Assembly: GCF_051903065.1 (NCBI RefSeq)
Contig: NZ_CP178438.1
DNA: 64,000 nt
Reading direction: 5' to 3' (one strand)
DNA from: Escherichia coli
Lineage (GTDB): Bacteria > Pseudomonadota > Gammaproteobacteria > Enterobacterales > Enterobacteriaceae
Every line of letters starts with the position of its first letter. The first letter of the stretch is position 1. Positions 27,001 through 30,000 of this stretch are shown here, piece after piece. A program made the position numbers.

Positions 27001-30000
27001 GACTTCACCGAAAAAATGACGCCCGCAGCGGTATTTTTCAGCAGACGTACTTCAGGTTTTCGAAAGGGAAAAAGCATGGCCACTCCTTAGCCGAATATTC
27101 AGAACCCTGAACTGTGCCAGAAAATTACGCTGGTGACTATTGCTCTGGAAATGGTAACGGTATCCTTACCCATTAATCCCCGTTTGCACCGAAAGAATAT
27201 GCTGCAAACTTTCTACCATAATGCGCCCCGACTGAAATAAGCCTTCCTGGATTTCGTTGTTAACATTCACAGCGTGAACCAGGGAGGCTAATAATACTAC
27301 TTGCAAGAAGGCAAAAATAAACGCACCGATAATCATAATATGCGTCAGGGGTATTTTCCTTTGCTCCTTCATTTTAAATAACCCACGAACTGGCCTTCTT
27401 TCATTAAGGCGACTTTTCCTGTGTGATGATAAACAATGACGTTATACAGACCTGACTGATAAACAGTGGCATCTTTATTGTCTTCATCAATTGCACATAA
27501 TGAATCATTGAGATAAGCAAAGTTTTTACTGCTCATTCTAAAGGTCATGCCAAATCCTTTATAAATGGCTTTCTTTGCCGCCTGGGCGTGTTGTGCGGCT
27601 TCTGCATTTTTAAATGCCTGCGCTTCGGAAGCACTTAAAATAGCCGTCTGGCGCTGCTGTTCTGCGAGATAACAGGTGTCATGGCTGACGCCCTGCGCCT
27701 GGCAATCTGCGATGCGGGAAGCGGGTGAGCTACAGCCAGCCAGTAATATAACCGCCAGCAGGGAAAACGATTTAATGGAGCTATTCATCATTGTTAACCT
27801 TAAATAATGTACAAATTAATGAAGAGGTGAACCCGGCAAGCTTCCTTGCTCTTATTTATATTGAGGATTGAAATATTAGAACGAATATCCCACGCCGACA
27901 CCCGCGCCGAAATCAGATTGTGTATCCGCAGAGACACCGGCTTTAATCACGGTATGCGTTCCGGCATTAAAAGATGTTCCTACAGACACCGCAGATTCAC
28001 CGTTGAAGGTTCCCGCTCCCGCTGACACCATCATCAAGTCACCGGTTTTCACCTGGGGTTGTGAGGCGATAGCGATGGCAGATGCAGTTCCCGCATTGGC
28101 TTCATTACGATTATCCTCAACTTCGTTTTTCAGCGAACTGAAATGGTTATTGAGCGTAGTAATCTGTTGGCTATTATCCGCTACTCGTTTTTGCGTGTTG
28201 CTTAACTGCTGATGCGTTTGGGTTACGTCTTGTGTCAGGCTGTCAATTTGTTCATGCGTTTGCGTTGAGTCTTGCGCCAGACGCTGAATTTGTTCCCCGT
28301 ACTGCACACTATCGATATGCTGTTGCGTTGCCTGGTTAGTCGCCAGAGTATCTATTTTTTGTTTTTGTTCTGCTGCAGTACGCGCATTCGCATCATTTTG
28401 TGCTCTCAGTCCGGCGTTAACCATCTCTTGATAATGTGCGTTGGTCTGGGCATCGCCAAGTGCGGAAACCGTTTTTTGCGTCGCGTCGATTTGTTTCTGC
28501 TGATCGTCCATTTGTTGCTGCTGGGTGTCCGCTTGTTCCTGTTGCGCATTGGCAGCGGCTGTCTGTCTGGCGTCAATCATGCTCTGATATCGGGCGGCAG
28601 TCTGCACATCCCCGGTGGCGGCAACGGTTTTCCGGGTTTCGTCGAGTTGTTGCTGTTGGTCAGCAATATCGCTGCGGTTCTGTTCGATATTATTTTTGTT
28701 TTCTGTCACAGCACCGGAAAGTTTGACGCCGTTAATCAGAGCGGTGTTGGCGTTAGCGTTAGCATGGTCAGCCGTTGACTGGGCATGTGTGACATCGCCT
28801 TTTATGTTGGTGACGTCTGACTGCACTGCGGAGACATCATTACGGGTGTCGGCGATGGCGGCTTTATTGGCATCAATATCCGTCTGCGCCACCGTGATGG
28901 CGTGCTGCGCGTCATCAGCTTTCAGTGAAGCCCAGTTGGCGGCATGTTGTGCGTCCTGAATGGCGGTGTCCTGCTCGTTGTCGCGGACGGTCTGTTTGTG
29001 CTCGTTTGATGCCAGCCGTTTCTGCTGGTCAGCAATATCGCTGCGGTTCTGTTCGATATTGTTTTTGTTTTCTGTCACAGCACCGGAAAGTTTGACGCCG
29101 TTCATCAGAGCGGTGTTGGCGTTAGCGTTGGCATGGTCAGCCGTTGACTGAGCATGTGCGACATCGGCTTTTATGTTGGTGACGTCTGACTGCACTGCGG
29201 AGACATCATTGCGGGTGTCGGTGATGGCGGCTTTATTGGCATCAATATCCGTCTGCGCCACCATAATGGCATGGTGCGCATCATCAGCTTTTTGCGACGC
29301 CCAGTTGGCGGCATGTTGCGCGTCCTGAATGGCGGTGTCCTGCCCGTTGTCGCGGACGGTCTGCGCTTGATTGGTTATCGGGTTCAGCGTACTGGCGGGC
29401 TGTACGGGAGAAGCAGTTGTATTTTCCTGAGGCGTCGTTGTCTGGTAATCATGCGCAATCAGATAATTTTGTGCGGCTGCGCTATTTCCTGTCCTTTCTA
29501 AAAATCGACCAATTTTCTGATCAATTTCCACTTGCGACATTCCTGGCTGGATTGCCGCTAATTCTGTCGCTGCCGCCTCAACAGTATCACCCGCAAACGC
29601 AGATGGACTTACTGCGGTAGCAACAACGACAGCCAGTAAAGACAACTTTACAGTATTCATGTATTTTTTCTCGTCCAAAGTAAGTCACATATTTGTTTCT
29701 ATAAGAAACATAAATCGTTGTTATAAGAATTAATCTGCGTTGCAATTTGATCGAAATCTACGCCGACATTTGTGTGATGTAAAGCGCATTTTTGTTTGAT
29801 GTAAGCGTAAACACCACCAATAAGAAACAAAAATTGTTTCTTTTATAAATAAAAAAGGAAATCATTTCGTGCTCTTTCAATGTAAAAAAGAGTAAAGACT
29901 TGTTTTGATAAGCGAAATAAATTCTGTTTCTGGACTAAACGTGAAGCGGTTCCTGATGTGTGCTAAAATGCGTTTCTTTGATAAATCTCAATTTTTAAGA

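What the first reader, a model, noticed from the sequence alone, without database searches (positions are those of the whole stretch)
28662..29393. Near-identical 366-bp tandem duplication inside the autotransporter stalk
Two adjacent copies differ by only a few bases, so the duplication is recent. It lengthens the coiled-coil stalk by 122 aa and is a likely site for strain-to-strain length variation and for assembly error.
Basis: seen in the sequence. Interest (0 to 1): 0.35.

Follow-up and report, generated by a model that had tools for sequence, protein, structure and literature searches.

The report
Variable-copy stalk cassette in E. coli adhesin
The repeat is a real, in-frame 369-bp (123-amino-acid) coiled-coil cassette present twice in the stalk of a small E. 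coli trimeric autotransporter; it is old rather than recent, strains carry one to five copies, and this same gene has been published as the "GmrA" transcription factor, which its sequence does not support.

Summary
The period is 369 bp (123 codons), not 366. The high-identity cores are 29018-29363 and 28649-28994. They are 93.9% identical (21 differences in 346 bp), joined by a diverged 23-bp linker.

The repeat lies in an intact 594-aa ORF (27876-29660, minus strand) with a signal peptide, a heptad coiled coil and a YadA anchor, so this is a trimeric autotransporter.

It is neither recent nor an assembly artefact:
- dS between the copies is 0.18, above the flanking dS between most alleles (0.06-0.09).
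- dN/dS is 0.19, so both copies are under purifying selection.
- The same two-copy structure occurs in many independent complete genomes.

The prediction of length variation is strongly confirmed. The gene is in 1414 of 5426 complete E. coli genomes. Of these, 350 carry the unit, in 1-5 copies. Intact ORFs of 471, 594, 703 and 840 aa were checked directly, and the O157:H7-type allele (338 aa) has no unit.

Each unit is a short connector plus one ~120-residue helix, about 18 nm of stalk if fully helical.

Two side findings. RefSeq truncates the long alleles I read (all but one to 349 aa). The gene is the orthologue of z0639, "GmrA", published as a transcriptional activator.

Verdict: ordinary biology, a new member of a known kind.

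The parts
27876..29660 (-). Trimeric autotransporter gene, 594 aa from the ATG (the ORF runs up to a TTG at 29678). Orthologue of O157:H7 z0639, published as 'gmrA'.
   Evidence: ORF listing. Pfam YadA_anchor. The published gmrA deletion-primer arm maps to 27838-27875, directly 3' of the stop codon. The same primers flank the 338-aa orthologue in O157:H7. Cloning primers begin at MKTVNVAL and end at GVGYSF.
29592..29660 (-). Sec-type signal peptide, aa 1-23: MNTVKLSLLAVVVATAVSPSAFA, then GD.
   Evidence: Read directly from the translation. Conserved in all alleles aligned. No signal-peptide predictor was available.
29364..29591 (-). Small N-terminal helical domain (aa 24-72) and a Pro/Thr/Gln-rich linker (aa 73-99). 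No recognisable TAA head domain.
   Evidence: The AF2 monomer model has helices at 26-35, 43-56 and 61-69 and no regular structure at 70-96. No Pfam family matches.
28995..29363 (-). Repeat unit copy 1, aa 100-222. The high-identity core is 29018-29363; 28995-29017 is the diverged inter-unit linker.
28626..28994 (-). Repeat unit copy 2, aa 223-345. The high-identity core is 28649-28994.
28059..28625 (-). Remaining non-duplicated stalk, aa 346-534. It holds two further modules that begin with KTV..(T/L)GD.QT, and short degenerate repeats (21-bp at 28483-28541, 42-bp at 28212-28295).
   Evidence: TRF. AF2 helices 354-400 and 406-532, with breaks at the GD motifs. No significant similarity to the 123-aa unit (BLASTP E 0.36).
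27879..28058 (-). YadA-like beta-barrel membrane anchor, aa 535-594.
   Evidence: Pfam PF03895, 45.4 bits against a cut-off of 22.7. phmmer hits to the anchors of AtaA (9vnj), Hia (2gr7, 3emo) and YadA (2lme).
27369..27791 (-). 140-aa lipoprotein gene 84 bp downstream on the same strand (z0638 orthologue). Context; probably co-transcribed.
   Evidence: ORF with the lipobox LLAGC. The z0638 primer arm matches the sequence just upstream of its ATG as read. Annotated 'lipoprotein' in O157:H7.
30027..30389 (+). Divergently oriented 120-aa ORF (z0640 orthologue). Context.
   Evidence: The z0640 primer arm matches the sequence upstream of this ORF as read. Only a weak MqsA-antitoxin (helix-turn-helix-like) Pfam hit, E 0.08.

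Best explanation
The two copies are a self-contained, in-frame 369-bp cassette in the passenger (stalk) region of a small trimeric autotransporter of E. coli genomic island OI-29.

Each cassette encodes a short non-helical connector (Q-T/I-V-R-D-N-G-Q-D) followed by one ~115-120-residue amphipathic helix. The helix has an Ile/Val/Ala a/d heptad core that includes an Asn at a d position. In the trimer this should add about 18 nm of coiled-coil rod per copy.

Because the copies are long direct repeats in frame, unequal homologous recombination or replication slippage adds or removes whole cassettes. Gene conversion shuffles variants between copies. The result is a population-level length polymorphism of 1 to 5 copies within this allele class. 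A second, deeply diverged allele class (O157:H7, UTI89) lacks the cassette altogether.

The window's two copies are an old, selectively maintained pair, not a fresh duplication.

Shown here: the repeat, its frame, the intact ORFs, the copy-number series, purifying selection, the mosaic variable-site patterns, the heptad periodicity and the membrane anchor.

Inferred: trimeric coiled-coil geometry, the recombination mechanism, and any effect of stalk length on how far the N-terminal domain projects from the cell surface.
For: - Repeat and frame.
- Intact ORF with signal peptide and anchor.
- Purifying selection on both copies: dN 0.034, dS 0.176, ratio 0.19.
- Copy-number series in complete genomes: 350 genomes, 610 places, 1-5 per genome, median 2. 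In a systematic sample of 60 rows, 24 had one copy, 30 two, 5 three and 1 four.
- Intact ORFs of 338, 471, 594, 703 and 840 aa read from RefSeq DNA. Five-copy (962 aa) and three-copy (717 aa) alleles with DNA in hand.
- Alleles with 1, 3 and 4 copies have flanks only about 1% apart.
- Adjacent copies differ by 0-10 nt in other alleles. One copy is identical across two strains. Variable-site patterns are mosaic.
- A unit variant lacks exactly 14 aa (two heptads) between two DAQHA repeats.
- Coiled coil: the hydrophobic periodicity peaks at 3.55 residues, reached by 1 of 2000 shuffles. Positions a are I12, A19, A26, I33, I40, I47, V54, V61, V68, A75, A82, V89.
- Pfam Alanine_zipper scores 23.4 bits against a cut-off of 23.1, and LPP also matches.
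- The AF2 monomer model has helices 97-222 and 230-349, broken exactly at the unit boundary.
- The unit is almost confined to this Escherichia gene: 23 hits among 1.84 billion cluster representatives.
Against: - No experiment here shows trimerisation, surface display or any phenotype of stalk length.
- The AF2 model is a monomer of low confidence (mean pLDDT 60, pTM 0.22), so only its secondary structure is usable.
- The 23-bp inter-unit linker matches neither flank. The founding event was therefore not a simple clean tandem duplication, or it has since been overwritten.
- Recombination is inferred from patterns in natural alleles, not observed.
- Deleting the whole OI-29 island did not change adherence of O157:H7 to HeLa or Caco-2 cells (PMC5826968). 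O157:H7 carries the cassette-less allele, but this is still evidence against a simple adhesin role.
- The same paper reports DNA binding by the protein.
- The five-copy allele comes from a metagenome scaffold, so its copy number may be mis-assembled.
Confidence: 0.85

Rival explanations
1. Recent, strain-specific duplication: one 366-bp segment was copied very recently in this strain.
For: The copies are adjacent, in frame and 94% identical. Some other alleles do contain very recent copies, with 0-3 differences between neighbours.
Against: - dS between the window's copies is 0.176, against 0.06-0.09 for the flanking gene between most alleles.
- The two-copy architecture is shared by divergent E. 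coli alleles and by a Shigella dysenteriae protein (P0009, 600 aa, 99% identical).
- The window's pair is the most diverged canonical adjacent pair sampled.
Confidence: 0.05
2. Assembly artefact: the second copy results from a mis-assembled repeat.
For: Tandem repeats are a known source of assembly error. The five-copy allele I found is on a metagenome scaffold.
Against: - An identical 3.2-kb region is present in the complete genome ECNB21-M121, which may be the window's own source.
- Three other complete genomes (H31-H33) hold a 100% identical unit and two copies. About half of the 350 carrier genomes have two copies.
- The copies differ at 21 positions, with a longest identical run of 43 bp.
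- The reading frame is preserved and under purifying selection.
Confidence: 0.02
3. The upstream copy is not translated. RefSeq models the gene as 349 aa starting inside the last unit, so the proximal copy and the signal peptide would be 5' non-coding DNA or a decayed remnant.
For: PGAP annotates 349-aa products in 1-, 2-, 3- and 4-copy alleles.
Against: - In every allele I read the ORF is open from a signal-peptide-encoding ATG to the anchor.
- Lengths differ only by whole units or by 14 aa.
- The N-terminal 99 aa are homologous to those of the 338-aa O157:H7 protein.
- dN/dS across the copies is 0.19.
- A 349-aa product would be an outer-membrane anchor with no signal peptide.
- In the window the annotated start corresponds to a CTG codon (L252 of the 600-aa ORF).
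Confidence: 0.04
4. The gene product is a cytoplasmic DNA-binding activator of fliA ('GmrA'), as published. The repeat would then be a duplicated coiled-coil dimerisation or spacer segment of a regulator, not of a surface fibre.
For: PMC5826968 reports that deleting z0639 lowers motility and flagellation, that complementation restores both, and that EMSA and ChIP-qPCR show binding at the fliA promoter. Deleting OI-29 did not affect adherence.
Against: - Their primers show that GmrA is the full-length ORF running from the signal peptide (MKTVNVAL) to the beta-barrel anchor (GVGYSF).
- Pfam gives only YadA_anchor above threshold, for both the window allele and the O157:H7 allele.
- NCBIfam gives only far-sub-threshold coiled-coil cross-hits to SMC and Rad50, for example 34 bits against a cut-off of 1087. 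My guess is that such hits are the source of the reported 'DNA-binding domain'; the figure is not held.
- The anchor is homologous to solved TAA anchors.
- A motility defect could equally be an indirect envelope effect.
Confidence: 0.07

Closest known systems
Z0639 / GmrA of E. coli O157:H7 genomic island OI-29 (Yang et al. 2018, PMC5826968)
   Same: Orthologous gene at the same locus, between cueR and ybbJ, with the same neighbours z0638 (lipoprotein) and z0640. The N-terminal domain, distal stalk and anchor align along their length. The published deletion and cloning primers map onto this ORF. The paper's own list of OI-29 carriers includes strain PCN033, which has a one-copy long allele.
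   Different: The O157:H7 protein is 338 aa and has no 123-aa cassette; the window's has two. The paper assigns a transcription-factor function and does not mention the signal peptide, the YadA anchor or length variation. The sequence evidence here points to a trimeric autotransporter.
Trimeric autotransporter adhesins with variable stalk repeats, for example Haemophilus Cha (Sheets & St Geme 2011, as cited in PMC9704523). From my own knowledge: Bartonella BadA and Moraxella UspA stalk cassettes.
   Same: A type Vc anchor and a coiled-coil stalk whose length changes between strains through in-frame tandem repeats. PMC9704523 states that repeat number in TAAs has been correlated with exposure of the distal domain, adhesion and immune evasion.
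   Different: Here the unit is long (123 aa) and consists of one connector plus one long helix. By my recollection the Cha repeat is much shorter (about 28 aa); this was not checked here. There is no recognisable head domain. No phenotype of copy number is known for this protein.
Periscope proteins (variable-length bacterial surface rods; review PMC9704523)
   Same: Long (>50 aa) tandem repeats with high DNA identity in the stalk of a surface protein. Copy number differs among closely related strains. Homologous recombination is the proposed mechanism.
   Different: The class is defined as monomeric chains of independently folding domains. The review explicitly excludes TAAs. This protein works like a Periscope protein but is not a member.
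Braun lipoprotein Lpp / OprI alanine-zipper trimeric coiled coils
   Same: The unit matches Pfam Alanine_zipper at the gathering threshold and also LPP. It has the same small-residue a/d core typical of parallel trimers.
   Different: This is only a local resemblance in sequence style. Lpp is a 58-aa periplasmic lipoprotein, not a repeat cassette in a secreted stalk.

Membership tests
Trimeric autotransporter adhesin (type Vc secretion) | C-terminal YadA-like anchor of about 60-70 aa (four beta-strands per chain) | tested here: met
   Pfam PF03895: E 8.5e-12, 45.4 bits against a cut-off of 22.7, covering profile positions 1-60 of 60. phmmer hits to the solved anchors of AtaA, Hia and YadA.
Trimeric autotransporter adhesin (type Vc secretion) | N-terminal Sec signal peptide | tested here: met
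   MNTVKLSLLAVVVATAVSPSAFA followed by GD, read from the translation and conserved across alleles. Judged by eye; no predictor was available.
Trimeric autotransporter adhesin (type Vc secretion) | Coiled-coil stalk running directly into the anchor | tested here: met
   Heptad periodicity. Alanine_zipper and LPP hits. The AF2 helix 406-532 abuts the anchor (low confidence).
Trimeric autotransporter adhesin (type Vc secretion) | Obligate homotrimer displayed on the outer membrane | not testable with these tools
   Needs SDS-PAGE heat-modifiability, fractionation or a trimer structure.
Trimeric autotransporter adhesin (type Vc secretion) | Recognisable head or neck domains (YadA-like head, Trp ring, GIN, neck). 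Usual, but not obligatory. | tested here: not met
   No Pfam family other than the anchor passes threshold. The N-terminus is a three-helix region of about 50 aa with no known family.
Periscope proteins | Tandem repeats of more than 50 aa with high DNA identity, whose number varies between strains | tested here: met
   The units are 123 aa. Adjacent canonical copies are about 94-100% identical in DNA (0-19 differences over the 330-bp core). Copy number is 1-5.
Periscope proteins | Monomeric single chain of independently folding repeat domains | tested here: not met
   The unit is a heptad coiled-coil helix in a protein with a TAA anchor. The review excludes TAAs by definition.
GmrA transcriptional activator (as published) | Same gene as z0639 | tested here: met
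   The deletion, cloning and FLAG primers map to the ends of the orthologous ORF.
GmrA transcriptional activator (as published) | A DNA-binding domain | tested here: not met
   No DNA-binding family passes threshold in Pfam or NCBIfam. There are only sub-threshold coiled-coil cross-hits to SMC, Rad50 and TMF_DNA_bd. The CDD hit shown in the paper's supplementary figure could not be inspected.
GmrA transcriptional activator (as published) | Cytoplasmic location and binding to the fliA promoter | not testable with these tools
   Reported experimentally in PMC5826968. The sequence predicts export and insertion into the outer membrane.
Eib immunoglobulin-binding TAAs of E. coli | Passenger sequence similar to the EibD stalk | tested here: not met
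   phmmer of the whole protein against all PDB chains at E up to 1 returned only anchors and chance coiled-coil hits. No chain named Eib was listed. That EibD fragments are among the solved structures is from my own knowledge.

The most novel reading that the evidence does not exclude
The 123-aa cassette is a length quantum for a trimeric coiled-coil fibre: a Periscope-like mechanism in a protein class that the Periscope definition excludes. Copy number (1-5, roughly 18 nm per copy) would be tuned by recombination to surface context such as O-antigen or capsule thickness, or to immune pressure. The published 'GmrA' motility phenotype would then be an indirect envelope effect of this outer-membrane fibre rather than transcription-factor activity.
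Probability: 0.25. Interest if true: 0.5.

Novelty: new member of a known kind. Interest (0 to 1): 0.3.

Why it matters
On its own this is ordinary biology. Repeat-number variation in surface-protein stalks is well known, and this is one more example, apparently not yet described for this E. coli protein. It has three practical consequences.

1. The gene is in about a quarter of complete E. coli genomes. Its long alleles are mis-annotated in the RefSeq records I read (all but one as 349 aa, with no signal peptide), so comparative studies that rely on annotated proteins will miss the repeat region and the length polymorphism.

2. The only functional paper on the gene calls it a transcription factor, GmrA. 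The sequence shows a signal peptide and a TAA anchor, so its location and mechanism deserve re-examination.

3. PCR sizing across the repeat is a cheap strain marker.

Tried and rejected
- I looked for similarity between the 123-aa unit and the rest of the stalk, to see whether the unit arose from the neighbouring modules. BLASTP gave E 0.36, so there is no support. Hybrid units that fuse the start of the next module to the last two-thirds of the unit do exist in other alleles.
- I searched PDB sequences for a solved relative of the stalk. Only the anchors matched.
- I tested whether the downstream lipoprotein has any solved relative, such as a SadB-like TAA helper. There was no PDB sequence hit below E 0.5, and only weak NCBIfam hits (TraV and XAC1346 chaperone, E 0.003). 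This is left open.
- PADLOC, Pfam and NCBIfam on the 409-aa ORF at 25854-27083 returned nothing.
- The first E. coli genome search was swamped by a REP-type element at 30404-30497, which matched 5415 genomes. I re-ran it with gene-internal queries.
- The ungapped comparison of downstream flanks failed because of indels and was not used.
- The promoter and terminator scan found no more sites than shuffled sequence.
- I did not run a fold search with the AF2 model because its confidence is too low.
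Full report
**Observation**

Tandem Repeats Finder reports a 369-bp period with 1.9 copies, 93% matches and score 1283, at 28649-29363. 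The repeat finder gives two copies with start-to-start spacing 369.

An offset scan shows 93.9% identity at offset 369 and no more than 33.5% at every other offset from 360 to 375.

The best-scoring cores are 29018-29363 and 28649-28994, 346 bp each, with 21 mismatches. They are joined by a 23-bp linker that resembles neither flank.

The duplication is therefore real and far beyond chance. However, its period is 369 bp (123 codons), its boundaries are shifted from those given, and the copies differ at 21 positions rather than a few.

**What it sits in**

The repeat lies on the minus strand inside an open frame, 27876-29678. The likely start is the ATG at 29660, which gives 594 aa.

The translation begins with a typical signal peptide, MNTVKLSLLAVVVATAVSPSAFA followed by GD. 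It ends with a YadA-like anchor: Pfam PF03895, E 8.5e-12, full profile coverage. That anchor also matches the solved anchors of AtaA, Hia and YadA. No other Pfam family passes threshold.

The window is E. coli chromosome. The 3.2 kb around the gene is 100% identical to strain ECNB21-M121. The gene lies between cueR and ybbJ-qmcA-fetAB, next to a type I secretion cluster with a 6925-aa SiiEA/BapA-related adhesin.

**Nature of the unit**

- Hydrophobic periodicity in the 123-aa unit peaks at 3.55 residues, a value reached by 1 of 2000 shuffles.
- With residue 12 at position a, eleven consecutive heptads carry I, A, A, I, I, I, V, V, V, A, A at a and A, A, A, A, N, T, V, I, A, A, L at d. The register then shifts by one residue near NGVKLSG.
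- The two-unit region matches Pfam Alanine_zipper at its gathering threshold (23.4 against 23.1 bits) and also LPP. Both are trimeric coiled coils.
- An AlphaFold2 monomer model has low confidence (mean pLDDT 60), so only its secondary structure is used. It shows helices at 97-222, 230-349, 354-400 and 406-532.
- The breaks fall at the unit-2 start (QTVRDNE) and at the GD turns of the two downstream KTV..GD.QT motifs.

Each unit is therefore one short connector plus one long helix. At about 1.5 Å rise per residue (textbook value), a unit adds roughly 18 nm of rod. 'Coiled-coil stalk' is supported. Trimer formation is inferred from the family.

**Age and selection**

Between the window's two copies dS is 0.176, dN is 0.034 and the ratio is 0.19.

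The non-repeat C-terminal 249 codons differ from those of four other alleles by dS 0.06-0.09, and from the most divergent sampled allele by 0.24. The two copies are thus at least as old as most of the allelic diversity sampled, and both are under purifying selection.

Adjacent canonical copies in other alleles differ by 0-10 nt over the same 330 bp. The window's pair differs by 19, the most diverged canonical pair I saw. 'Recent' is not supported for this allele.

**Artefact?**

- The complete genome ECNB21-M121, which may be the window's own source, holds the identical 3.2-kb region.
- Three other complete genomes (H31-H33) hold a 100% identical unit and two copies.
- About half of the carrier genomes have two copies.
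- The longest identical run between the copies is 43 bp.

An assembly artefact is excluded for practical purposes.

**Length variation**

A gene-internal query outside the repeat finds the gene in 1414 of 5426 complete E. coli genomes, always as a single copy. The unit itself is found in 350 genomes at 610 places, 1-5 per genome, median 2. In an evenly spaced sample of 60 rows, 24 had one copy, 30 two, 5 three and 1 four.

The 353 genomes whose distal gene part is at least 90% identical to the window's correspond closely to the 350 with the unit. The remaining ~1060 genomes carry a diverged allele class (about 80-90% identical) that has no unit. An example is O157:H7 at 338 aa, in which the N-terminal linker runs straight into KTVAATGD.

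I read the DNA of seven further alleles. All are open from the signal peptide to the anchor:

| Copies | Length (aa) | Source |
|---|---|---|
| 1 | 471 | L006, L007 |
| 2 | 594 | L003 |
| 3, one unit short by 14 aa | 703 | L004 |
| 3 | 717 | L010 |
| 4 | 840 | L005 |
| 5 | 962 | L009 (metagenome scaffold) |

Protein clusters in the large database show the same series. The alleles with 1, 3 and 4 copies have flanks only about 1% apart. Copy number therefore changes faster than point divergence.

**Mechanism**

The evidence for recombination between copies is as follows:
- The variable sites of the aligned units form mosaics.
- One copy is identical in two strains at the same position (copy 2).
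- Two neighbouring copies in the five-copy allele are identical.
- One unit lacks exactly 14 aa (two heptads) between two DAQHA repeats.
- Other alleles contain a hybrid unit that joins the start of the next stalk module to the last two-thirds of the unit.

These are the patterns expected from unequal homologous recombination, slippage and gene conversion, with selection preserving the coiled-coil register. The process itself was not observed.

**Distribution of the unit**

A full HMMER scan of 1.84 billion cluster representatives found only 23 hits. The close ones are fragments or variants of this Escherichia protein.

A few distant TAAs with YadA anchors share the sub-motif NW...K.D..HHAIMVAQ.DID.

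**Comparison with what is known**

The gene is the orthologue of O157:H7 z0639 in island OI-29, published as the transcriptional activator GmrA (PMC5826968).

- The paper's lambda-Red arms map immediately outside the 338-aa YadA-anchor ORF in an O157:H7 genome, and one arm maps to window 27838-27875.
- Its cloning and FLAG primers start at MKTVNVAL and end at GVGYSF.

GmrA is therefore this full-length autotransporter.

I find no DNA-binding family above threshold. There are only weak coiled-coil cross-hits to SMC and Rad50. The paper's genetics and EMSA stand as reported. The sequence, however, predicts an exported outer-membrane trimer, and this conflict is unresolved.

The paper also reports that deleting OI-29 does not change adherence to HeLa or Caco-2 cells. 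That tempers the label 'adhesin'.

As a mechanism, the closest class is the variable-length surface rods called Periscope proteins. Their definition excludes TAAs, although the review notes that repeat variation in TAAs such as Cha has similar effects. This protein works like that class, is a member of the TAA family by anchor, signal peptide and stalk, and has no recognisable head domain.

**Annotation**

RefSeq models the long alleles I read as 349 aa starting inside the last unit, for 1-, 2-, 3- and 4-copy alleles alike. One record is modelled at 431 aa instead. In the window the corresponding start is a CTG codon. These models lack the signal peptide and all upstream units, and are almost certainly wrong.

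**Verdict**

The repeat is real, but it was mis-measured by one codon and is not recent. It is a modular coiled-coil cassette whose copy number varies among E. coli strains. This is a new example of a well-known kind of variation and is of modest interest. The mis-annotation and the GmrA conflict are the points most worth passing on.

Noticed in passing
window 27876-29660 (-); O157:H7 locus L002 3577-4593: The only functional paper on this gene (PMC5826968) names it GmrA, a transcriptional activator of fliA. Its own primers show that GmrA is the full ORF, with signal peptide and YadA beta-barrel anchor. No DNA-binding family is detectable.
   Followed up: yes
L001 3577-4626; L003 3546-4595; L004, L005 and L007 1728-2777; L006 1728-3023: RefSeq/PGAP annotates the long alleles as 349 aa (431 aa in PCN033), starting inside the last repeat unit. 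This omits the signal peptide and the upstream units, although the full ORF is intact in every case.
   Followed up: yes
window 22116-24277 (+): The type I secretion permease/ATPase gene next to the giant adhesin is split into two overlapping ORFs (585 aa and 252 aa). The identical RefSeq genome marks it 'frameshifted', so the secretion system for the 6925-aa adhesin may be inactive in this strain.
   Followed up: partly
window 1335-22112 (+): 6925-aa ORF annotated 'BapA-related adhesin SiiEA' in the matching genome. It was not examined for its own internal repeats.
   Followed up: no
window 25854-27083 (-): 409-aa ORF between cueR and the OI-29 genes. It has no hit in Pfam, NCBIfam or PADLOC. 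It is present in ECNB21-M121 but absent from the six other E. coli loci read; one of them has an IS4 at that spot.
   Followed up: partly
window 30375-30531: REP-type repeated elements, with sub-threshold Rfam naRNA4 hits on both strands. A 94-bp stretch here (30404-30497) matched 5415 of 5426 E. coli genomes at several places each.
   Followed up: partly
L004 gene aa 100-208; L009 gene aa 224-344: Two variant units. One has a 14-aa (two-heptad) deletion between two DAQHA repeats. The other is a hybrid in which the start of the next stalk module (AATGDVQTAARYQSMIDARQ...) is fused to the last two-thirds of the unit.
   Followed up: partly
P0132, P0136, P0139 (distant YadA-anchor proteins): The sub-motif NW...K.D..HHAIMVAQ.DID inside the unit is conserved in otherwise dissimilar trimeric autotransporters. 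It may mark a functional or structural site.
   Followed up: no
window 27369-27791 (-) and 27166-27372 (-): A 140-aa lipoprotein (z0638 orthologue) and an overlapping 68-aa ORF follow the autotransporter gene on the same strand. Weak NCBIfam hits (TraV; XAC1346 secretion chaperone, E 0.003) hint at a possible biogenesis helper. No solved relative was found.
   Followed up: partly
window 28212-28295 and 28483-28541: Further short degenerate in-frame repeats in the distal stalk: 42 bp x 2 at 78% matches, and 21 bp x 2.8 at 76% matches.
   Followed up: no
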